64,000 bases of DNA. Origin: Podarcis liolepis (lineage: Eukaryota). Positions 12,921 to 44,100 of the stretch are shown one piece after another. The stretch is taken from assembly GCA_965112155.1 (NCBI GenBank), contig OZ218104.1, one strand, 5' to 3'. The first letter of the stretch is position 1; every line of letters starts with the position of its first letter. The notes beneath the pieces are model-generated. The model was given only the letters and a program-made list of their open reading frames with translations. It had not been told where the DNA came from and did no database searches. Both the position numbers and the translations under genes were made by a program.

Positions 12921-14256
12921 CTATATATATATATTATAAAAAAATAATCACAAGGGGTCAGGAGAAGAAACATGATTTTATGCTTCAAATCAAAGGATAC
13001 CTTTAAAACTATTTATATTTGAAGAGTGTTCCCTTTATAAAAAGTGGTCATCATCTGACACTGGGCAACTAGCAAAATTGGCAACCACAGAATGCAAAGC
13101 ACTTGCCGTTGACTTCCCATTAAGAACAAACTCAACAAAAGGAATTGGGACGGCAGTTTTACCTTCCCAAACCGTATGTTGTTGGGACTCCAGCTGCATG
13201 AAGCCAACAGCCATCAAACCAGAAAGTTATCTGCACAGTCTTGAGTCAATTTGTACATGAATCAGGGCACAGAGGCATTTGTGGCAGCTATTCCACAGTG
13301 CCAGGGAACTCTTTTTCCTGAAAACAGAGGTAGCCCTCTGGAGGCTGCTGAACTGCTGCTTCAATCATCCTTGACCATTGGCCATGCTGGCTGAGGGTGA
13401 TGAGAGTCCAGCAACATCTGGGAGCCTCTCCTTGCTCCTTAGCCTGGCGACTGAGAAGAGCTAAAAGATCTTCTATTTGAGCAGTGTTACTACTAGATCA
13501 ACGTACCTGGGGAAATAACTATCTTGTAGGGCTTCTACACACAACCTTTTAGAAGAGTTCTCAGTCTGCAACGGGTCCACTGGGAGCGGAACAGAATATA
13601 TAATACCTGGCTCCCCTTTACTACAAATCCCGAGAGAGACAGACAGAAGAAAGCCACTTGACTGCATTACCAGTGGCCTTCCAACGGAGAATCACAAGTT
13701 CTTTCTTTGAAGACGTTTTTCAGGGGCACAAATGGCAAATGAAGCAGAGAGGTCCAATATATCAGTGAGTCCCAGGCTAAGGAGCAAGGGGTCTCCAATT
13801 CCAAGGCCTCTATCTGATTATGGATGCTTTTGCTAACCTCCAGGTGTTTTGGACTACAACTCCCATCAGCCACAGCCATATTTGCAAGGTCTGATGGGAG
13901 TTGTAGTCCAAAGAAACTGCAGGGAAACATGTTGGCGAAGGTTGGTCGACAATATTCCATGCCTAACCAGGACTCAAAACGCTTACCAATGATGATGATT
14001 AAGAGAACGACCACCACTGCAATCAGAATGGCCCACATCTGCCAAGAGAGAGAAACAGAGCAGAACTATTAAATCTGCGAGCCACCACCATAATTTGCAA
14101 GTTTAATCTAGTATCCTAGTTTTGTCTAATTGCAATCACTCAACAGATACTGGCATTTAACATCATTTGGGAACTGTGAATTTCTTTGAGAAGTAGCAGC
14201 CTACTAATACAAGGATTCCGGTCAATATAATATAGCAGCCTATATTTTTACCAAAA

Positions 14257-26046: not shown

Positions 26047-26110
26047 CTACGGGATGCTGCCGCCGCCGCCTCTTTCTTCAAGTTCCTTGGCCTTTTTCAA
26101 TTCTTTCGCT
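26047..26110 (-). CDS. CAMTA1: CAMTA1 last exon, read in two frames: SERIEKGQGT* (stop 26078, microexon included) or RAKELKKAKELEERGGGGSIP* (stop 26047, skipped)
   Basis: ttcatttcag| acceptor; both frames translated by hand. Confidence 0.92.
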
Positions 26111-29100
26111 CTGAAATGAAAGAAAAGGGAAAATGGGGGAAAGGTATGACGTTTCTGTTTCCAAAACCCTTGGTGTGAAAAACGAAAAGGCATTATGCAT
26201 TTCTTTATTTTTATTTTTTGGCAGAGGAAGTAACCACCTCATTTTTCTCCCATATTTCACTAATAATTTAAGAAAAGAAAGAAATTAACTGTACCCAGTA
26301 GTCCCAAAAGGCAAGTGTCATTTGAAGCAGCTTCTAGGAAAAAGCTGGGGGGGGGGGGGGGAGAATAGCTTGAACTCTGAAAAGACAGAAGATCTATCTG
26401 TAGACTGGTAGTTCCCATGTCTAGAATATATGCCAGTCACCTGTTCTGGATACTGCTATGCTTCTTTTGAAATAACAGACTTGCAGTTTGGGAGTGCTTA
26501 TGGATCCACCTTTGTCCCTAGAAGCTCAGGAGGCCTCAGGAGCTAGGAATGTCTTTTACCAGCCTTGTTGGTGTGTCAAATACAGACGTTCTTGGACAGG
26601 GACAGTCTGGCCATGGTGATTTATGCATTGAAAGCTTCAATATTTGATTACTGCAATGCATCTACATGGAGCTACCCTTAGGCCTTGTCCAGAGGCTTCA
26701 GCTGGTGCCAAACACTGTGGCTAGACTTGTTGGGGGTCTGACTGTTGCCAGCACAAACCTCTGGTGCTCAAGTTTGTACTCATAGAATCATAGAGTTGGA
26801 AGAGACCACAAGGGCCATCGAGTCCAACCCCCTGCCAAGCAGGAAACCCCACAACCTGGCTGCCCATTCGCAACCGGGCCAGTTTCAAGATTCTTGTATT
26901 AATTTACAAAGTATTTTAAGAATTTGGCTGCAAGAAACCTGAAGGATGGCCTAATCCCTTATATCGTTGTTCGATCACTGAGGTCTTTGGGGGGCATCAC
27001 TGTTAGCAGTCCCATGTGGCTCAGATGCATGTAGCCGCACATTTAGCGTGGGCCCAATTTTATGAAACTCCTAATTGCAGTCAGACAGGTCCCCTGCCTA
27101 CTGAACTTCTGGCATCTACTAAAAATATTTTTTAAATCCCAGCTGGTCTTTTAATTGAAGTTTGATTTTATAGTTTTAACTGGTTTATACTTTTTGTATT
27201 GCATTTTTGTAAACTGCTTAGACTATTGTAGTTAAGTAGTATATAAATGAATTGTTTAAATAAAAAACATTTAAATGTACATAAAAAAAAAATCCAGAGG
27301 GGTGGTGGTGCTTGATCCGTATCGGAATCCCAATAGGTAGCATGTAATGGTTTGTGTACTTTTAACCCTTTTTCCTTCTGCTGCGATCCCAATCAGGACC
27401 CTATACCTGCAGTTTGCATGGAGGAATAAAGCTCTCATCTAAGCAAACAGGTGTTTTCGCCCAAATTTCCTGTTGCCCACCAAGCAAGATTCCTGATCTG
27501 GATTGCCCCTTCAGACACATGGCATTTTGTGTAAAAAAGACCAGCTACACATAAAAGGTACAGCTACTCAGTGGTAGCAACATAGCAAGGGCTTCTTGTC
27601 TCTCCCTCAGCCCCACCTCTGGTCAACAACTGGCCAAGATAAGTTCAACATAAAGACCAGCCTTTCTCCTGAACCTTCTGTTGCATATGTGGGAGTTCAA
27701 AGTACGCACAGGAACTCTCCATGAGACCAATAATGATGCTCATTTCAAGGTGGGTTCAGACAACCAGCTCACAACCAGCTTGGCCATCTTTGCTGGACAG
27801 TGAGCATGCTGAAGGGATGAAAATATCATCTAGCAATGCACTTCCACTGGTTGAAGCAATGGGCAAGTTGTCTAGCGCCAAGTGAAATTGTCAGACGAGT
27901 AACTTTTCCTGGTGATCGACTTATCCTGTCTTTTCTCTCTTTATGTGCCTCTGTTGGAGAAAACACTGGCCCGCCAGGCTTCCCAACTGGCTCCTTGGCC
28001 AAGACAGAGGTTGGAATGACCTTTCCTTTTTTTGTCCCATGAAGCTAGAAACCTTTTCCTCTCTTTTATAGTTCTTGTCACTGTCCACAAAGCCCTTTTG
28101 TCAAGCGTCTTCCCACCTCTCTCTTGACTTGCAACCTGGCCAGGTAGGCACACCATGTTCACAGTGAGTTGAGGTAATAGACATGTTAAATTCAGAAAGA
28201 GGAGATACATGTGTCAGGCCAGGCGTGCTTTTCCCATGCAAAGCCCACATTTTCCCATTGTGGACTCATTCACTGAGGTAGAAGACCCATCTGCTATGGG
28301 ATCTCATTGAGGACATGCATGATCAATCGAAGCTGGTGGCTCCTTTGCAGACATGCTGAGTCATGCAAAGTCTAGGCTAACAGAGCACTTCTGCTGGAGT
28401 GGAGGGGATGCAAGTCATGCTTTGTTGGCACCATCTGTCATCATCAGCATGCAGTGTCTGGACTGGTGGAGACCAGTTGCCATTGTCTGGAAAATGCATG
28501 CGGATTCTCGCCACATTCCACATTTGCGCGAGTACAGATGTCATCTAGAAATTTACACAACGCCTTTCTTGGGACCAAATCAGGTGGCTGACTTGCTTGA
28601 ATGCTGAGGTTTAAACACCAGACCAACTACTTAATGGATAGACAATTGTTGACTCTTGAGGTATTAAGAGCTTTGTGATGCTCCTTAGCTGAAATGGATG
28701 TACACTCTAGAGCTGCAGTTTCTGATGTGACAAGATGTAACAGTGGCCTTTAACGTGAGCCTCACCTCCATATACCTGTGCAGACTCAACTTGATGTAAT
28801 GGATGTGTTGGCGATAGATGGGTGGCTCCTTGCTGTCTAGGCTTGCTGGCTGCCTGCAACCAGGTTGGGCTAGAGATGGATCAGGCCCCTTTTTCTGTGT
28901 GGGTGCTGGGGCAGGGGAGTGATACTAACTTGCTTTGAGCAACTGTTTCAAACACAGGTAGGTTTAAAATAATTTTATGCTTTGTTGGAAACACTATATC
29001 CAGTTTTACAACTATGTGCAGACTACTAAATCGATAATATATAGTGCTAATGAAATTGCAGGTTCAATACAACCATGACGCCACCAGCCAAAATCGCATC

Positions 29101-32100: not shown

Positions 32101-35100
32101 ATGCTTCCCTCCTCCACTGCTTCCAGGGAATGCCCTGTGTGCAAGTGAAGGGGCCAGGACCCCACTCCTGTGCAAAGCTCACAGGACAGTGCCAGAGCAC
32201 CATTGCACTAGTATGGAAGGGTCACCACTGGCAGAGGAACCATGAAACCCCATTGCAGGAGCTCTGGAAACAGCCATGCTGAACTACAGATCAGATCCCA
32301 GCTAAGGCTTCTCCACTCCAGGTCAGAGCTGTGGACAGCTATTCCTGTATCCAGACCAGCGGTGCATATTCTCAAGCCCAAAGATGCCTTGGAGGTCAGT
32401 CACTGGAACTGAGAGCTGGAGCAGGCAGACGGTAGTGCTCTGTTGAGCAGGCAGAGTAAGAAAGCCCAGAGTCCCAGGACTTATGTTATGTCTGTCCAAT
32501 CCAGAGGCTTCATCTAGCCAGCCGATCACACTGACTCTGAGGCTTATGCATGCACACACATATACATACTCATGGATAGGTTATTAAGTTAGGCCCAGGT
32601 TTCAAACCTCAAAATCTTCCTATGCATTGTGACTCCTTGTCATGGCAAAAGCAGCTGCTGCAGCATTTGCCCACTCCTGAACCAGGACAGAGAACTGGAC
32701 AAGAGAAGCCAGACTAGGCCTGCCTCAGAGCTTCTAACTGAAAGAGGCCAGCTGTGTGAGCGCTTTGTGCTGTGAGGTGAATGGGGGCTGTACAAATTCT
32801 CATGGCAACTGGGAAGGAGCAGCAGCAGCAGCATTCAGAGATGTGAGTGTGTCCCGCACATGCACAGCAACGGCAGTCGCAGCCGCAGCAGGTGTGGCCT
32901 TGTATAGGAGGGCAGAGCAGCAGCAGCTCTCTCTTGTTTGCTCTTGTGGGGAAATCAAAGCAGCAGAGATGGTCAAGGCCGCCTGAAGCAGAGGTCCTGG
33001 GGGTTGCAACGTGAGGAGGAGGTGGAGGCACAGGAGTGGGTCTGGGCTGACATGAACCATGCTAAAAACAGGTGCCCAAAGCCACCTGAACATGCAACCA
33101 CCCAATTCTCCCTGAAGGGACGGACCATGGCACAGGTGGCTCCTATTCCTCACCTCCACACACCTTTGTCCCTGGCTCAGAATGCCCAGGCAGAGTAGAT
33201 CCATTTGAAACAATAGACATGGCTAAGTTAGGACCATTAATTTTCATTATTATATTTATTTATATCCCACCTTTTTCCCTGACAGGGACTCAAGGTAGCT
33301 TACACAGAAGTAGAAACAACAGCCTATGCTGAGTAAAACTTATTTGATGGGTGGGGTATAAATAAAATCATCATCATCCAACATTCTAGCATAGTGTTTT
33401 TATCTCCATTTTGATCTGCATATTCACTCCCTATTTTATATTTTCATTTTGCATAAAACTGCTGATTTGGATTCCTGGGCTTTTCTGAATCCTGGATACC
33501 TTCAACGGCGGGTGATCCATCTCCCGACATTGGACTATACAACTGTTGTTAAGGCGCCTGGGAAAGCAGGAATTGTCAAGTAGGAGACTTGGGAGTTCAT
33601 CTAGCTGTTTTCCTACTCCTGAGATCAACAGAGAGAAGTGGGAATCCTATACTATGCCCCAAGTGACATACATGGTTGGTAGCAAGGAGAGGGAGAGACA
33701 AAAAGAGAATGGGGCACCTGTTGCTACTGGGTTATCTTACAGGGTTGGTGCGCCATGGCAAGTCCAGATTTGGTGCTGATTTGTGTGGAAGTGCCCTGTG
33801 GTTGCCAGTGAGATTAAAGCTCTCGCTTCCCTTCGACAAATCTGCAAAATTACTGAAGGACCTGATTGGACTCTCCTCCACCCGCCTAAATAGAACATAG
33901 TTGAATAACTAAAATGGTATTTTGGGGTTCACCCCCTAGAATGCTTTTAGGTCAGCTGTCAGATCAAGATCCTTTGCAAAGCAAAGATCCATATTACAGA
34001 TGCTCAGCTGATGGCCAAATGTAGCAGCTTTCATGGCTTTAGTTGGGAAGTGGCTGCCTGCACTTACTGCTAGGAAAGACTCTGCCTCCTGCCGCAAGGC
34101 CTCCCTCTCAGCACTTTGGGGGGCTCTCTCTTACTGTGCCTGCCTTTATGTGTTTCTGAGTCAGCCCCAGGCTCTGGACTCTCATGTCCCCCTCTCTCAT
34201 CAGCACTGTGAGTTTTCTCTTTGCTCACCCCCTAGGTGCCTAGTCCTAGCAGCAACTGTTTCCACCTGTCAGAGCAGCTGTCCTAACACCTCCCTTCACA
34301 AGCTGTGCTATGGGGCTGCTCCATGGACACAATCCTGAAGCTATTTATCATGCCTCTAAGGCCTGGCTGATAGGGACGCGGGTGGCGCTGTGGGTTAAAC
34401 CACAGAGCCTAGAACTTGCCGATCGGAAGGTTGGCGGTTCGAATCCCCGTGATGGGGTGAGCTCCCGCTGTTCAGTCCCTGCTCCTGCCAACCTAGCAGT
34501 TCGAAAGCACGTCAAAGTGCAAGTAGATAAATAGGTACCGCTCCGGCGGGAAGATAAACGGCGTTTCCGTGTGCTGCTCTGGTTCGCCAGAAGCGGCTTA
34601 GTCATGCTGGCCACATGACCCAGAAGCTGTCTGCGGACAAACGCCGGCTCCCTCAGCCTATAGAGCGAGATGAGCGCACAACCCCAAAGTCAGTCACAAC
34701 TGGACCTAATGGTCAGGGGTCCCTTTACCTTTAAGGCCTAGCTGAACTGAGAGACACCCCACATCCCCCTTGCATGCTGGGAATTCTCCTCACTTTGCAG
34801 CCCTGTAAAAATTGCCAGGCGAAGGGAGAGAATGAGGTGGTGCAGTGGCATTTTTTACTGTAGGATACTAAACATGGCATCATCAACAAACTTAAGGGAC
34901 AATCAGTAAACAAACATGTTGCTTTTTCTTTTTTCAAATCCCAGCTCGGCAGCACACAACTGTTTTAAAGGTATTGTATAAAAGGGAAAGCTCCCTCACC
35001 ATTACCAAAGGTGCCAGTAGATTTTGTAACGGGAGAGTCAAATGGCATCAAAATGGGTTCCACTGTCCAAAACCGGTGTCTACACCACAGTGAATAGACC

Positions 35101-38100
35101 CTGCCATTCACACACACTTGTTACAAAGTGTGTTCACATAGGCGTGAGGTGACTCTCCAGCCCCTTTCAAAAGCAATTCTTCTGCATCGGTCCAGCCTTG
35201 CATTTGTGAACGGGAGGCTTCCTTGCCCACAGTACTGAGGCAGTGGACAGACTTCCATTTGCTCAGCATCCATGCACTTCCATCACTGGATTGTGAAGCC
35301 ATACACACACAATGGTGTCAGCCACAACCCACATCTTTCCAGTAGTTTCTTGAGAAATACTGTATTTGATGGTGTTTTGATGGTGGCGTTGAGAAATTAT
35401 CTTGCTGGGGAACTTTAGGATTCCAACACAGAACTACATGCCAAAGAGTTCCCCGAGTAGAGGGAATGGCTATTAATCCAATTAAAAAACTACCATGTAG
35501 CTAATAAACTCCTTCTAGACAGCCACAGAAAGAAATGTGACAAGCTCAACACCTGCAACAGGATAGGAAGACATATTCTGGGAAGATGCGGTCACCACTT
35601 GAGATGTAAGACAAAATTGTTGTGGGGTGTGTGGTTTTGTTTTGTTTTGAGGAGAGGGCTTTTTCTGGACAAACATCAGTGGGTTTGTTCACACCAGAGT
35701 TTATTGTGTGTTTGCAGCTGTTTGCTTTCCCATTTAATTTGTATTATCCACATGATGTTATCCTCAAACACCAATCCTTTCCCAACACAGGGGGAATGTG
35801 ACGTTAGTGGAAATTGGGCTCCGAACTACTGCACTTGGAACTGCAAACTATTTATTTAGGGGTGGGTGGATCTATTTTCACTTTCTGCTACTCACCTTTT
35901 CATGCTCAGTACTATCTCAATACCATCATTTCTTTTCCAGCCATATTCTTAATTATTTTCACTGCACTCCCGAATGGTGTACAGCCGTGTGGTTTTTTCC
36001 CTTTTGATCTCTCAAATTTGCACAAAACCAGAAAACTGCACAAGCAAACCACACACACACACACACAAATCTGCACCAAATACTGAACAGAATTAATCTC
36101 AAAGTATGTGCTGAAAACATACAATTGTTTTCTTTTCTGGCACACTCCTGAATGGAGGAGTGTAGCCTTAGATATTTTCTTTTGATCCTTCAGATTTGCA
36201 CAAAGTCAGAAAACTACAAAACTGTGTGCTAAGAATTAAAAATTGCCTGCCCAGTTATCTGTACACATGCCCTGTCAGTATTTATTCGGCACAACTGAAT
36301 CAGCAAATTAGAAGGCAGGGAAAAACGCAAAAGGGAATGCTTACTGACATGAACAAGAAAGATAAAAGTTCTTCCTTACAGGCAAATTCATGTATATGCA
36401 GCTGTGGACTAATTCAAATGTGGGGAGGGGGGGGGGAGTGCATTAACAGCTCAATAATGCTCAGTTGTGGACAAACCCTATGATTAAGCCACTAAAGGAC
36501 TCAGCAGAGAATGGAAAGAAAGCTATACAAGAAATCTTAAGGATGATTTTCTTCATCGCTGCTGCCAGCTTCGAGGAGGAATGTTGCCATTGAATCTTGC
36601 TGGCTACTCTGATATGGTTCACATTGTAAAATAATGATATAACTAAAAGAATATATGAAATAAAATCTCATATCTGAGGCAGTCCCAAGAACAAGATGCC
36701 CAACAAACTTCAAGATTGGCTGGGTGGAGAACAGACCCCACAACAAATGAGGAACAAGGACAGCATAACCTGTAACTGTGCAGAAAGCAGGTAAGATGAG
36801 GTGCTTGGTCCTCCAGGGTCTTCCCCAGCACTGCTGCTGCTGGAGATGGAGATGGACATTCTGCGTGCAAAGCATGTGCTCTCCTGCTCCAGACACATGA
36901 AACTACCTGCTTGTAAGCCAGGCAGTGGATCCTCCTTGCTGCTCAGTGCTGCCTGCTCTGATTGGCAGCAAGGGCTCTGCTGAGTCTCTTTCCCAGTCCT
37001 GCAATCCAGCAGCTCACATCCAGCCCTCTACTCTTTAGCCCCTACATTTCCACTGACTTTCAGAAGTCATTCATGGAGCAAGATGTCAGCTTTGTAAGGA
37101 CATGGAAGGAATAGAGAGCCTGCATAATGCCAATGCAGTTGTGCGTGTTGCTCTCAGGTCAGACCTGGGCTGCCTGATCCAGGCTGGGGGCTTCTCCCAG
37201 ATTCTGAACTACAGTAGGCAGCAGCTACGGTTAGGCTATCAGTATTCATCAAATCCATAGACTTCATACTACCTGCCAACGGCAAGGGCGGATCCTGTGC
37301 CTTTAGAGGGGCCGCCCACCCATGATGTTTAACTTGGCTGAGCCCTCATCCCCCAGCACCCCAGTTCCTGATTCCTGGCCTGAAGTGCTGAGAGCCAGCG
37401 CTTCCTAGGCTAGAGCAGGAAGCTCTCACTCCTTTCTTCCCTCCTGGCAGAAGAGGAGAAAGTCTGTTCAACAAAGTATTGAGGCCTTGCGCTGGATGGA
37501 GCCTCGCTTTCAGGCTATGGGCAATTTTGTATAGACAGAAGCAGATACCGTCCACAGAGAATGTAGCTAGGTAGGCTCAGTACAGCTGCTACTGGGGGTG
37601 GGGGACCATGGGACAGAGATTTCTGCCCCATTCCCTCTCATTGATCAGCATGCCCCATGATGGATGGACAGGAGTGTTCCCTCCCCACCCCCTGCTCCGT
37701 TCATGCATCTGTAACAGCTACTGCAGGTAGTACGAAGCAGCGGTGTTAGTAACCGCAACAGTTAGTTGTGGCATGGTCAGTTTCCCCGATTCAGAGAGAA
37801 TTCAATGGATGTGAAACTTCATGGTCATCATCTCAGCTGCAGCCCCATGCAAGCAAGCAGAAAGCAAAGAGAGAGAGACATATATATATGTGTGTATATA
37901 TGTATATATATATAGTGAGATATATATAGATATATCATTTTAAATGGAAGAGAAACAGTCCAGCAGGCAGCTAAACTCACCCTTTTGTACCGCCTATGGT
38001 CCACCAGAGGGCTTCAGATGCGCAAAACGATAGCAAAGAGCTATTAGCATATAGATGGCAACAGGTAGACACCTTTTATTCAACAGCTTCAGATCAAGGA

Positions 38101-41100
38101 GGATAGGCAAGCTGCCTGCTCTGGGGAAGGGAGAGGGAGAGGAGAGGGTGGCCAAGGTGGGGGTGTCAGATCTCAGGGGCCAGCTTGCAACAACCTACGT
38201 GCTGGGAGGGTGGAGCTGGTTGAGTAGCACCATACAATATTGAGCAAAACCCAAATGCGGGTCTATTTTATTGGAGCTGGGTGGGAAGTAGCATTGAGGT
38301 TCCAAGACCCTCCTTCTCTGACTCAGAAGACTAGAACAAGTTTTCTTAGAAATACTATGTGATAATCAGAAAGAAGGTGTTCCTTAACTGTAACCCCAGA
38401 GATATGGTGGGCTACGAACGCAGCAAGAAGTATCCAAGCCGTTGTCAAAACCTTGTAGCCATCTTGGCCCACTGACCAAAACTCCACTTTCTTACCAAGG
38501 TTCAAATTAAGTAATGAAAATCTATTAATCAGAATTTTTATTCTGATTAACAACAGATTCAACAGAAAGGTGCTGGCCACTTTTCCAAAGGGCCCCCTTC
38601 CCTTTACTTCTTGATCCCAATATGCCATTTTGCCACCTGATGTGTTTTCTGCTGGAAAAAGCTAGTCATGCCTTATTACTTGTTTCAAAGCCAAACTAGT
38701 CATTTGCTGTGCACAGGATGTCAAGAAACACCAGCAGATGGGGCTACAGGTATGACATCTGGACTGCCAATTGATGACCTGCTAGCCCCTGGTGTACATC
38801 CTTAAAAGTGCTGTCAAGTTCAAAGCATATTCAGGGCTTATCCAAACTTCCTCTTGTTCCGCTGCTTTCCTCTGGGGAAAACTGCTCTTTAGCACTCAAT
38901 GGGAGTTCAATTTGGGTTTTCTCTGGACTGACGTTTGCTCTGATTTAGAGCTAGGCAGCGGGTTTTCCGTAGGAAAGGAGTGAGACAAGTGGAAGTGTTG
39001 ATGAGCCCTTGTAGTCAGGCTATCACAAGCTAAAGAGACCACGACTTTGCATTGTCATATCGCCATTTGTCCCTTCCATAAGAGTTTTTTTGGGGGTGGG
39101 GGGTGGGGAAGGTTTGCATCTCTCCCTCACATATAATGGGAAGAATGGTACAAAATACACAAACACAGAGGCCATTGTGGGAGCAATTCCTATAAACCTG
39201 AATGTTGCCAACTAATACATGGGCAGTGGTTATTTTGAAGGTAGTATATATTTGGAGCTCCAAAATCTTTTTTAAAAGTCTGTCAAGTAAAGGTTCTTTG
39301 AGTAAATGGAGCAGAGATGGCAATACAAGTGAATTAGTATCGAGTTAAACAACGAAAAACATCAGATGAGAAGGGTCTGCTGGATCAGGCCAGTGGCCCA
39401 TCTAGTCCAACATCCTATTCTCACAGCGGCCAACTGGATGGTTATGGGAAGTCTACAAGCAGGACTTAAAAGCAGTCTCCCCTCTTGCAGTTTTCTAGTA
39501 ACTTGTATTCAGAAGTATTACTGTCTCCAATTGGGGAGGCGGAGCATAACCGTACTGGCTATTAACCACTGATAGCCTTATCTTCCATGAATTTGTCCAA
39601 TCCTCTTTTTACGCCATCCAAATTTGTGGCCCTCAATGCCTCCCATGGGAACAAATTCCATAGTTTAATTATACACTGTCTGAAGGAGTACTTTCGTTTG
39701 TCTGTCCTGGATCCTCTAACATCCAGCTTCACTGGATGTCCACGTATTCTAGTGTTACAAGAGATGGTTATTACATCAAGATAATATTGGGGTCTTTTTG
39801 TTAGGACTAATAAGAATGGACCAAGCAAACCTTTGAATTCTCCAGAACTCTCTGTCCTATCCAGAGTAGACCCACTGAAGTTCATGGGCATGACTAAATT
39901 AAGGTTCATTAATTTACATGGGCTTACTCTAAAAAGAGCTTAGTTGGAATATCCCAAAGGCTGTACTGTTTGGGGGCTTCTTATTTTAGATAACAGAAGA
40001 GTAAGAAGTAGGTAGGGATGAGATGGGATGAAATTAGACAGGGTTTTTTCCTTCCTTCTCCTTCTCACAACAGTATAATTTGGGGTCGCTGTGAACTTGG
40101 TGGGCAGTAGATTCAGGACAGAAAAAGAAATTACTTTTGACACAGCATGTAGTTAGCTTGTGGAATCTGATTCTACCAAATGTGGCTTCAGTGGCTTTAA
40201 GAGGGGTTCAGGCAAATTCATGGGGGACGAAGAGGCCTGCATTACTGATTTCAATAATGGGTTGTATCTAATGCTAGTCCAACTCGGAGTGCACTCGTTG
40301 AAATTAAGGTAACAAATTGAGCCATGGCTATTAATTTCAATGGGTCTATTATGAGTAGGGCACAACTCAATAGTTTTAAAACTCATTTCCTCAGTTGTAT
40401 TTCCTGAAAAATGTGCACACTCATTAGTTGCTATAACCATTAAAGCATCTTGGTCTGAGACTGAAAAGTGCTTTTATGTACCACAAAACCTGCTGCTCTC
40501 TCTGTGCACAAGAAAAAAATAAATAATAGAATATGACTTGAAAACTAAGAAGGCCCCATTTCAGCTAGAAGGAGCTGGTAACAATATGATGCTACAGATT
40601 CAGCCCCACTGAGTTCAGTGGAGCTTACTTCTAACTAAGTGGGCATAGGATTGCAGACTCATTGTCTTGAGCAGCTTTGAACTGTTGCTGGGAGCCATGA
40701 AGGCATCATACAAAGGCCTGTCAACCTAAGACAGCTTCTGCACTTAAGTGACTTCCCACCACCCCAGCCCAAACTGCAGGTGAAGTGCACAATTGCAGCC
40801 TAGCAGCAATTCTACCTGAAGCTTGGCTGCCCATTCAAACCCCACAATCTTTGTCGGTTGCACTCATTTGCACTCTGCAGTTTCCAGCATCACCCAACTA
40901 GTCCTAAATCTGAAATGACATACTTTATCCTGGGTCATATGCAGAAAAGCTCTTAGTTCCCCTTCTGTTCCTTCTTAGCACATCCACCCAGTCACTTTCC
41001 TCTTGCCTCCCCTCCTCTTGCCTCCCCTCCTCATGTGCCAAACTCTGAAATTTCAGATGGCCTTTCTTCATTCTGAAGCAACAGGAGCACCCCCTCTACA

Positions 41101-44100
41101 CCCCACTGCTTGGACTGACAGTCCTCTTGGGATGGATCCCACAGAAGCATGTCCTATTGCCTTACCTGGGGGTACCACAGACTTACACTGTCCTGGGAGG
41201 GAAACACAGGGGGCTTTTTTGAACCTAAAAAAAATTTCTGCAGATATTGAGCCTGTCAGGAAAGGTGCTGGGTTCCTATTGACCATGCCCACATCAAAGC
41301 ATCAACCACACAATAAACTGCCAGGGCAGTTTAGTATCTGTTTTTTGAAATGATCATTAATATTTCTATGAGGTATAGGGAACCACTAATATAAATATAC
41401 AGTATACATCTGTATATGTTTAAAGGCAGGCAGCTCCCCTGAAGCATGTAAGAGGGTCCAAACCAAGAGCAGATCTAGCACTCAACAGTGATGTTATAAA
41501 ACCAGATTTACACTGCAGGCAAAGGTTCACGTGGCTGCAGCCAAGAGGGTTGTGCCTGCCTTTGCCTTCAGAGGCCCAAGTCAACTTCCCATGGACAACA
41601 TCCATGGACACTCATGATCCAACCAGGCTCCAATCCTCTGGGGAGCACCTGAACTTTGTTTCTTGGCACAACCATTTGCAGCCCCCCCATGTGATTGTCC
41701 GCACTACCTTCCAATCCTTGGTCTGTAGCCCCCAACTAGGTATCTTGGGGAGGGCACACCTAGAAACTGAACGCTGGTGATGTCTCACCTGTGGCGGCAG
41801 CGTCGTAAAAAACGCATGATCTTGCGAGCAGCTTGGTCCTGCTTCTTGGTGAGCAAGCTGCTTCTGCAAGAAAGGAAGGAAGGAAGAGAACATCAGGGTC
41901 CAGGAGTTACCAAGGAGGAAGTGGGGAGGGGAAAAGGCCATCTAAGTAAGTGGTAGTAGAGCATCTGCTTTCAATGCTGAAAGCTCAAGTTCAATCCCAG
42001 ACATCTCCAGTTAGGCTGGGAAAGACTCTCTCCCCCTTTCTGGAACCCTAGACAGCCTCTGCCAATCAGTGCAAACAATACTGAGCTATATGGACCAACT
42101 GCCTGCCTGTGGTATATAGAGCAGCTTAATGCTCCCATGAGGGAGACTGTCCAAGCTGATGTCTGTAAAAACTTTAGTGCTTTTACTCATAATAAGGGAG
42201 GCTGGCTGACAAAACACTCCATGGTTTTTTTGCTAGTTTCTTTTTATTTTGTCTGTTTTACTTTCTCTCTCTCTCTTCTTTCTTTTTTTGTTTTGTTTCT
42301 ATTCTTTGCTTTTATTCCTTTTCTTCTTTCTTTGGAGTCATATGTTTGGAGCCTTTATTAAGGTCCAAAGACTGTATACTGATGGGGTGGTCGATGGTCA
42401 GTGGAGGACCCTGGGTGAGAGAGAGTGAAAGGTCGGTCTCTCAGGGTGAGAAGCTGGGAGGAGAAAGGAAAGATCCCTGGTGAGAGCTGGGAGGAGCTGC
42501 TGTCCTCTGTGGGTGGTAAGGCTAACAATTAATTTTAAGTGAGGGCTCTGTATTTTACTTATTCAATTTGTATCTTTTGTAGTTGTAATTTTACTGTATT
42601 AGAGAAAATTTTAATATATTTATTTTTAGAAAGAACTATAAAAAACCAAAACACTTTATGAATATGGGCCTTCTTCCTACAAGGCTAGAATTATTCAGAC
42701 ACCTGCTTTGATGCATATTGATTCATTCTGTCCTTCGTGACTGAATGCCACCCTCCTGTTGTACTTACCGATCTTGCAGCCTCCTTGCATTAGAAAGCCC
42801 CCACCTATCTGAGCTGCCCTTTTGTCCCTTCACCCATCAGTTCCCCCTGCCTTTCTTAGCCCTTCCAATTGTGAGCTGGCAGGCACTCTGCGGTAACAGA
42901 TGCAGAATCGTGGCTTCTGAGAGAAATAATGTTTGTTCCTATGCATTTGCTTGATTCATCGGGGGGGGGGGAAGAATCTAGGTTTCCTTGGTGCATAATT
43001 TAGTCTTTTACTCAAGTGCATAAGCATCAATCTCTGCCTTACACCCCCTTCCTTCCATCCATCCATCCACTCTGCCTGGTATTGTCTGGCAAGTCAATGT
43101 GGGGGACTGCCTAAGATCCGTGAGGACTAGCCCTTGCCCTGTCTACCTTCTCCAGCATGCCCACCTCACCTGAGCTTCTGCTGCACGAGAGCAGCCGTCC
43201 TGCGACTTTGTCTCCTCTTCCCACATTCCTTGTAGCTGCGGTAGAACTGCTGGATTAGGACAGCAGCTCTCCGGCTCTGCTGGAATTTCTTCTGTTCGTA
43301 GTAGCTTCGGAATTTGCTCTGGATGAGGATGGCAGCTTGTATCATCTTTTTATAAAGTGCATACTGCAAGGGGAAGAGAGAGAAAGAGAGAGAGACAGAG
43401 GCTGAAGCACTCCCAAAGGCAAAAATAACAGTCACTCAGGGGAAAATCCAGAGATGGGCACAGAAGAATTTCACTGCGATAACAGAAAAAGTACCCTGCT
43501 GCTTTTACTAAGCAGGGCACATAAATTCTATTCCTTGTTACCCATAACCCCCCTCTCCTCCACTGGTTCTCCACACAAAGCAGCTCAATCCCTTGAGGAT
43601 GGGCAGCTGAATATGCAAAAAAGGCTCTGCCCTGAAAATGCAGAATGCATCTCAACGCAAGGTGTATCATCTGTGGCAGGCCTTCCACACCTGTTAGTCA
43701 TCTCTGGATGGTGCACATGTATGTTCCACAAACTGGAAGCTGACTAGACTGGGACTTTTAGGAAATATTAATGTTTCCCAATTAAGAGTGCTTTCCATGG
43801 ACAATGACAAAAATATTTCAATTACTCCTCAGAGTATGGGGGGAAATGTTTTTTTAAAAAAATCTAATCTGCTCTAAGACTTGGTTTCCATTTATTGTGC
43901 ACGTGTAAGAGACAGATAAAGCACACAAACCTGCACACTAGGCCAAATACTTTACCAATTTTCAACCTGATAGTGGGCTGGTTCAAACATCATGCTATGC
44001 AGTTGGTCATGTTTAACATGAATGGGCAGCATCCAGTGCAAGGGTGAACAACATTTCCAGCCCCGTGGGCCAGGCCCCCATGGACCAACTTTGACAGGTA

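What the first reader, a model, noticed from the sequence alone, without database searches (positions are those of the whole stretch)
37224..37766. Sense-strand-specific long-range RNA duplex downstream of the CAMTA1 frame-switching microexon
Seen: in the CAMTA1 pre-mRNA (minus strand), CUUCGUACUACCUGC (37737-37723) pairs over all 15 nt with GCAGGUAGUAUGAAG (37276-37262). An outer, correctly nested 10-bp helix pairs GUUGCGGUUA (37759-37750) with UAACCGUAGC (37233-37224). All three non-Watson-Crick positions are G-U wobbles on the sense RNA but would be A-C mismatches on the other strand. Neither arm looks like a repeat. A QKI-type ACUAAC (37750-37745) lies at the internal loop between the helices, another (37766-37761) just outside, and an RBFOX UGCAUG (37707-37702) inside the ~445-nt loop. 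Known: long-range intronic RNA bridges can control RBFOX-dependent exons. Inference: this is a selected RNA structure gating the 31-nt exon that picks the CAMTA1 C-terminus. I do not know of a description of it.
Basis: partly seen in the sequence, partly recalled or inferred. Interest (0 to 1): 0.72.

Follow-up and report, generated by a model that had tools for sequence, protein, structure and literature searches.

The report
CAMTA1 intron helix beside QKI sites
Just downstream of a 31-base switch exon of a reptile CAMTA1 gene lie clustered splicing-factor motifs and one 16-base-pair RNA helix that is predicted to form and would likely hide a false splice site; the second, outer helix is predicted mostly not to form, and conservation of the pairing is untested.

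Summary
All arms and motifs are at the stated coordinates, and the 31-nt exon switches the C-terminal frame. The inner helix is 16 bp and is predicted to form (P about 1 in 4 of 4 contexts). The outer helix is not (P 0–0.39); a local hairpin holding UACUAAC in its loop competes with it. The G-U strand argument is circular. The inner helix is only modestly beyond chance: 23 of 381 random blocks pair as well. It is the strongest helix between the proximal intron and the other 11.5 kb, and its arms are not multi-copy. One divergent relative keeps both ACUAAC motifs and the outer 5' arm, but no relative covers the 3' arms, so covariation is untested. The geometry is not an RNA bridge: no RBFOX or full QKI site is brought near the exon. 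The helix buries positions −18 to −3 of a branch point–AG decoy acceptor, so masking is my preferred role. Verdict: likely real RBFOX/QKI module, inner helix about even odds of being selected, and a new member of a known kind.

The parts
41789..41863 (-). Upstream constitutive CAMTA1 exon (last IQ-type segment)
   Evidence: Open translation in frame with the previous exon
37981..38011 (-). 31-nt cassette exon; inclusion shifts the last exon's frame
   Evidence: AG/GT bounded, 31 nt; frames; a 31-nt Camta1 cassette is listed in mouse (PMC5989265 supplement file 2). Inclusion in this species was not observed here.
37846..37851 (-).
37791..37819 (-). 29-nt block with two YCAY (NOVA-type) words, no listed difference in organism H
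37761..37766 (-). First ACUAAC (QKI-type)
   Evidence: unchanged in organism H
37750..37759 (-). Proposed outer 5' arm; also the 5' strand of local hairpins
   Evidence: unchanged in organism H; long-range pairing P 0-0.39
37740..37756 (-). Predicted local hairpin, 5 Watson-Crick pairs closing a 7-nt UACUAAC loop; excludes the outer helix, compatible with the inner helix
   Evidence: -8.0 kcal/mol with flanks; pair P about 0.4-0.45 in the 37870-37100 context
37745..37751 (-). UACUAAC: QKI site and perfect branch-point consensus; putative branch A at 37746 (-26 from the AG)
   Evidence: only TACTAAC on the minus strand of the window
37736..37742 (-). Tandem YGCY (MBNL-type) words; both organism-H changes fall here and keep YGCY
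37723..37738 (-). Inner helix 5' arm (16 nt); occupies -18 to -3 of the decoy acceptor
   Evidence: no indel in organism H, substitutions there not listed
37718..37722 (-). Tandem AG (CAG then UAG) ending the decoy acceptor; use after the 31-nt exon would put a stop codon in frame
   Evidence: sequence; use not observed; G>A in one same-species contig
37702..37707 (-). RBFOX motif UGCAUG inside the loop
   Evidence: no listed difference in organism F (weak: about 4% divergence)
37277..37722 (-). 446-nt region closed by the inner helix
37261..37276 (-). Inner helix 3' arm; contains a weak donor-like word (6 of 9 consensus)
   Evidence: conservation untested
37224..37233 (-). Proposed outer 3' arm
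   Evidence: low pairing probability; conservation untested
36902..36910 (-). Second, shorter possible partner (9 bp) for the inner 5' arm
   Evidence: (family D9), -14.8 kcal/mol
26047..26110 (-). Coding start of the last exon, read in two frames (10 codons with the cassette exon, 21 without)

Best explanation
The stretch 37870-37700 holds clustered RBFOX, QKI, NOVA- and MBNL-type motifs that likely control the 31-nt CAMTA1 exon, and only the inner 16-bp helix is predicted to form, most likely to bury the pyrimidine stretch between the UACUAAC and the AG 25 nt later so that this QKI site would not be used as a false 3' splice site. Shown: motifs, gene model, geometry (helix covers -18 to -3, branch A at -26), non-repeat arms, constraint on the QKI block in one relative. 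Predicted: inner helix forms; outer arm folds locally and displays UACUAAC in a loop. Inferred: selection on the helix (about 0.5) and, given selection, masking as its job (about half; the rest is a scaffolding or loop-shortening role).
For: Inner helix P 0.97-1.0 over its 15 core pairs in 4 of 4 contexts, 0.03 on the other strand. Strongest uninterrupted helix between the proximal 256 nt and the remaining 11.5 kb of intron, -26.1 against -23.3; third-best distinct partner site among 6,360 sense-strand windows and best in this intron. Helices of this class whose 5' arm is not multi-copy occur 8 times per 200 kb; by my arithmetic an arm would fall in the 48-nt block with P about 0.003, or in the 170-nt module with P about 0.01. 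The arm sits between, not on, the QKI and RBFOX motifs. In organism H, 0 of 21 motif and outer-arm positions differ against 17 of 71 in the adjacent flank (Fisher p 0.01, positions chosen after the fact). Acceptor geometry is met by 3 of 33 NACUAAY sites. QKI and SF1 compete for ACUAA branch sites, and dual sites bind QKI tightly (PMC13004596 passages). Conserved complementary regions are enriched over inactive and cryptic splice sites (PMC8052449 passage). Rat Camta1 splicing was among changes validated after RBFOX1 expression, with primers in the two flanking exons (PMC12713644; primer match by eye).
Against: No data on the 3' arm in any relative, and substitutions within the 15-nt 5' arm are not listed for organism H (7 unlisted differences in the two end zones). 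23 of 381 random blocks pair as well, and 8 of 23 other helices of like strength and span also reach P of 0.9 or more. The decoy's pyrimidine stretch is weak (10 of 15). Three contigs cross the AG with no joint or loose end, and one same-species contig (depth 2) reads G>A at the AG. Over the whole 29-nt block the constraint is marginal (2 of 29, p 0.054). The mouse 31-nt cassette is not called a direct Rbfox, Nova, Mbnl or Ptbp target in PMC5989265.
Confidence: 0.45

Rival explanations
1. The 5' block is an ordinary protein-binding splicing module, perhaps with a local UACUAAC hairpin, and the long-range helix is a chance match without function.
For: Energy-based p about 0.06; rank 16 of 800; high model probability is common among such helices; 2 nested helices whose 5' arm was not multi-copy occur in 200 kb of nearby sense sequence. 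What is shown conserved (ACUAAC twice, outer arm) is explained by QKI binding and the local hairpin. With the two organism-H changes a shifted hairpin of -7.2 is still predicted (assuming unlisted neighbours are unchanged).
Against: Co-location with the motif module is unlikely by chance (about 0.003-0.01, my arithmetic); it is the best helix for the proximal intron; the arm matches no motif I scanned for.
Confidence: 0.38
2. One reading: a nested two-helix structure forms and gates the exon as an RNA bridge, by positioning or switching QKI and RBFOX sites.
For: Both helices are sterically compatible, -41.9 kcal/mol when the loop is left out; nested pattern in 6 of 194 shuffles; outer 5' arm unchanged in organism H. 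The local and distal partners of the outer arm are mutually exclusive, which could make a switch.
Against: Outer helix P 0-0.39; no UGCAUG or ACUAAY is delivered toward the exon and the arm is 243 nt from it, outside the 50-nt rule used for bridges in PMC8052449; CAMTA1 is absent from that paper's 296 bridges and 1,135 loop-outs.
Confidence: 0.1
3. The arms are decayed terminal inverted repeats of an old miniature transposon.
For: Repeat ends are the main source of such helices here (16 of 24 multi-copy); the non-canonical pairs are transitions.
Against: One match for the 601-nt region in the genome (common words are skipped); arms occur 1 and 2 times exactly and 3 and 12 times with one mismatch against controls of 1 and 3; single hit each in 284 kb; flanks do not pair.
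Confidence: 0.04

Closest known systems
Pairs of conserved complementary regions (PCCR; PMC8052449, passages and five supplement files searched)
   Same: Near-perfect intronic helix, 16 nt, -24 to -26 kcal/mol (their group II-III), spread under 10 kb, near an alternative exon, overlapping a cryptic splice site.
   Different: Conservation of both arms defines a PCCR and is untested for the 3' arm. The full human catalogue files were too large to read, so the human orthologue may already be listed.
RBFOX RNA bridges (ENAH, RALGAPA1 as described in PMC8052449; the original Lovci 2013 paper was not held)
   Same: Downstream-intron helix with RBFOX and QKI motifs near a penultimate cassette exon.
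   Different: The motifs lie on the exon side or inside the loop; no RBFOX or full QKI motif is brought near; the arm is 243 nt from the exon.
Dual ACUAA branch-site element bound by QKI in competition with SF1 (RAI14; PMC13004596, passages)
   Same: Two ACUAAC 16 nt apart, one a perfect branch consensus followed by an AG at branch distance.
   Different: There it is the real branch site upstream of a regulated exon; here it lies downstream of the exon before an acceptor not seen used, whose tract is inside a helix.
Structure-controlled poison exons (BRD2/BRD3, PMC10789245, search listing only)
   Same: Intronic helix next to a possible stop-carrying exon.
   Different: No exon is shown here; the donor-like word is weak.

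Membership tests
PCCR (conserved long-range intronic helix) | Near-perfect complementarity of 10 nt or more, -15 kcal/mol or better, within 10 kb | tested here: met
   Inner helix -24.1 (15 bp) or -26.1 (16 bp); the outer helix at -12.1 fails
PCCR (conserved long-range intronic helix) | Both arms in conserved, non-repeat intronic sequence | tested here: inconclusive
   Non-repeat shown; 5' block partly conserved, 3' arms not covered
PCCR (conserved long-range intronic helix) | Compensatory substitutions | not testable with these tools
   No relative covered both arms; collection scans found nothing
RBFOX/QKI RNA bridge | Exon within 50 nt of one arm and factor site within 50 nt of the mate arm | tested here: not met
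   243 nt from exon; no UGCAUG or ACUAAY in 37276-37000; rule
RBFOX/QKI RNA bridge | Exon responds to the factor | tested here: inconclusive
   Literature only: rat heart RBFOX1 for; mouse network call negative; no Camta1 entry in the Qki5 supplements searched
Exon loop-out | Regulated exon lies inside the loop | tested here: not met
   The 31-nt exon is outside the helix
Structure-masked cryptic splice site | Helix covers splice-site-like sequence | tested here: met
   Covers -18 to -3 of a branch point-AG decoy and a 6 of 9 donor-like word
Structure-masked cryptic splice site | Site becomes used when the helix is broken | not testable with these tools
   Needs a minigene or antisense oligonucleotide
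MITE terminal inverted repeats | Multi-copy ends in the genome | tested here: not met
Neuronal microexon (3-27 nt) | Length 3-27 nt | tested here: not met
   31 nt; definition in PMC12868881

The most novel reading that the evidence does not exclude
The helix pairs the acceptor and the donor of a hidden 448-nt stop-carrying pseudo-exon (37720-37273) with each other. The QKI enhancer doubles as that exon's branch point, so the helix keeps it silent in QKI-poor cells such as neurons, while the outer arm toggles between a local UACUAAC-display hairpin and the distal partner to tune the CAMTA1 C-terminal switch.
Probability: 0.12. Interest if true: 0.7.

Novelty: new member of a known kind. Interest (0 to 1): 0.35.

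Why it matters
The 31-nt exon chooses between two CAMTA1 C-termini, and CAMTA1 is a neurodevelopmental disease gene (recalled, from no call). If the helix is selected, it names a short deep-intronic element where variants or antisense oligonucleotides could shift isoforms. It would also give a clean test of how a downstream QKI site that equals the branch-point consensus avoids being read as a 3' splice site. If the helix is chance, what remains is an ordinary RBFOX/QKI splicing module.

Tried and rejected
Orthologues: pattern scans of metagenome contigs and prokaryotic genome contigs gave 0 matches. The run search listed 24 runs, none on record as RNA holders; 4 of the 24 were laid. X19 gave no contig, and X17, X18 and X20 cover only 37465-37868, so the 3' arms had no cover, which is no evidence either way. 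Paralogue: the CAMTA2-like gene on C14 has a 1.4-kb intron at this position with no such exon or arm words. Rfam: 3 matches, all far below gathering score. The Camta1 microexon of PMC12868881 is frame-preserving, so it is not this exon and is not used as support. A second-tier bridge to the distal GCAUG cluster (-27.8) is within the range of 4 control tiles (-22.9 to -29.1). The G-U asymmetry argument was rejected as circular, and high model probability alone as undiagnostic. Lovci 2013 and Gehman 2011 were not held.

Full report
Observation. All four arms, both ACUAAC and the UGCAUG are at the stated minus-strand coordinates, with three G-U pairs. The inner helix is 16 bp (37738-37723 with 37276-37261, two G-U) and closes 446 nt. 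Folding 37200-37800 gives -229.2 kcal/mol, z -2.46 on 20 shuffles, with the inner helix but not the outer in both MFE and centroid.

Gene context. Exons at 43362-43170 and 41863-41789, a 31-nt exon at 38011-37981 and a last exon from 26110 give a CAMTA-type C-terminus. With the short exon the last exon adds 10 codons, without it 21; both stops lie in the last exon. The name CAMTA1 rests on recalled human isoform ends and on rat primers printed in PMC12713644 that match the flanking exons by eye. A second copy, 80% identical over the IQ exon, lies on C14; I take it as CAMTA2, and it has no such exon or arm words in the matching intron. A 31-nt Camta1 cassette is listed in mouse. The downstream intron is 11,870 nt and the 5' arm starts 243 nt below the exon.

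Is the pairing more than chance? Modestly. The inner helix ranks 16 of 800 by stacking on its strand, and 15 of 779 on the other strand are as strong. 23 of 381 random GC-matched blocks find as good a partner within 1 kb. A tailored nested criterion is met once in the window and 6 times in 194 shuffles, but real sequence has far more such helices: 45 sense and 47 antisense in 200 kb. Most are repeat ends; 8 of 24 with unpaired flanks were not multi-copy, 2 of them nested. The better argument is position. By my arithmetic an arm of this class falls in the 48-nt motif block with P about 0.003, or in the 170-nt module with P about 0.01, before correcting for other exons one could have looked at. 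It is also the strongest uninterrupted helix between the proximal 256 nt and the rest of the intron. The ensemble puts its core pairs at 0.97-1.0 in 4 of 4 contexts and 0.03 on the other strand, yet 8 of 23 comparable helices also reach 0.9. The G-U argument carries no weight, since any helix chosen by allowing G-U on this strand shows it.

The outer helix. Its probability is 0.16, 0.02, 0.39 and 0.00 in the four contexts; its 5' arm prefers local partners. One is a five-pair Watson-Crick hairpin whose 7-nt loop is exactly UACUAAC (-8.0 kcal/mol). 2 of 33 ACUAAY sites in the window have such a stem, and a planted motif gets one with P 0.025. A review table lists QKI as binding single-stranded RNA and hairpin loops (PMC7404189, passage). 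This hairpin excludes the outer helix and is compatible with the inner one.

Not a transposon end. The region has one match in the genome. The arms occur 1 and 2 times exactly and 3 and 12 times with one mismatch, against reversed controls of 1 and 3, and once each in 284 kb where repeat ends gave up to 25 hits.

Conservation. Of 24 listed runs, 4 were laid on 37100-37870. Organism H (X20, under 90% alike) covers 37709-37868. Both ACUAAC and the outer 5' arm are unchanged, two substitutions fall at 37742 and 37739, and two letters are inserted just outside the arm. That is 0 of 21 changed against 17 of 71 in the flank (p 0.01), or 2 of 29 over the whole block (p 0.054). A second unchanged block, 37791-37819, holds two YCAY words. 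No listed difference lies nearer than 31 nt to an alignment end, and 7 differences are unlisted, so the 15-nt arm is shown only to be free of indels. Organism F (about 4% divergent) adds little. No contig reaches the 3' arms, so covariation is untested. The two H changes keep both YGCY words and still allow a shifted hairpin (-7.2); both are also plain CpG-type transitions.

How it likely works. The segment reads as a multi-factor intronic module: UGCAUG at 37851 and 37707, two ACUAAC, YCAY and YGCY words. RBFOX1 binds Camta1 RNA as a positive control (PMC6715404, passages), and Camta1 was among splicing changes validated by RT-PCR after RBFOX1 expression in rat heart (PMC12713644, passages and section 25; direction not stated in the text read). 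Against this, the mouse exon is not called a direct target of Rbfox, Nova, Mbnl or Ptbp in PMC5989265. The helix is not placed like a bridge or a loop-out. It does cover -18 to -3 of a potential acceptor whose branch consensus lies at -26, a geometry met by 3 of 33 NACUAAY sites, and its partner strand holds a weak donor-like word 448 nt downstream. QKI and SF1 compete for such motifs (PMC13004596, passages), and conserved helices are enriched over silent splice sites (PMC8052449). I therefore favour masking of a decoy acceptor; this step is inference. Against it: a weak tract, no joint in three contigs that cross the AG, and G>A at the AG in one same-species contig of depth 2.

Prior description. 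Ten searches listed no paper on a CAMTA1 intronic structure; the arm words hit one unrelated viral paper. CAMTA1 is absent from the bridge and loop-out tables of PMC8052449 and from the supplements searched of PMC4174434 (one file not searched), PMC5693031 (two files not searched) and PMC11632617. The full PCCR catalogue (three files) and the supplements of PMC10573301 could not be read and may list the human pair; files 13-15 of PMC5989265 were not searched. PMC12868881 (passages, one supplement file) concerns a frame-preserving exon, not this one. PMC5314398 gave primers only; PMC12435732 was read in passages.

Verdict. The sequence observation stands, the outer helix and bridge reading are weak, and the inner helix has about even odds of being selected. 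New member of a known kind; interest 0.35, rising to about 0.7 if it proves to silence a decoy exon built on the QKI site.

Noticed in passing
window 28235-28502 (-): Seven GCAUG (four full UGCAUG) in about 270 nt, the densest such cluster on this strand, 9.5 kb below the 31-nt exon; four UGCAUG this close arise in 0.7% of random placements. Resembles the deep intronic RBFOX clusters of PMC12435732.
   Followed up: partly
window 36751-36733 with 28304-28286 (-): A 19-bp G-U-rich helix (-27.8) into that cluster; not above control tiles.
   Followed up: yes
window 37875-37936: AT dinucleotide repeat between the exon and the motif module; organism H diverges into a different AT-rich repeat there.
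   Followed up: no
window 37721: One same-species contig of depth 2 reads G>A on the sense strand at the decoy AG; polymorphism or error.
   Followed up: no
window 37560-37695 (-): A long local stem-loop domain inside the loop, present in MFE and centroid; organism F has several substitutions in it, not analysed for pairing.
   Followed up: no
window 34370-34740 (-): Looks like a Sauria-type SINE (recalled resemblance; not tested).
   Followed up: no
L006-L025 (G000:C7:28398001-28598000): Many short elements with 15-25 bp terminal inverted repeats, up to 25 local copies, likely MITE families.
   Followed up: partly
window 13428-13791 and 38833-39009: Other strong inverted pairs (18-20 bp, and 39 nt at 79%), symmetric on both strands.
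   Followed up: no
L004 3620-5190 (G000:C14): CAMTA2-like paralogue with the same exon junction and no cassette exon in a 1.4-kb, repeat-rich intron.
   Followed up: yes
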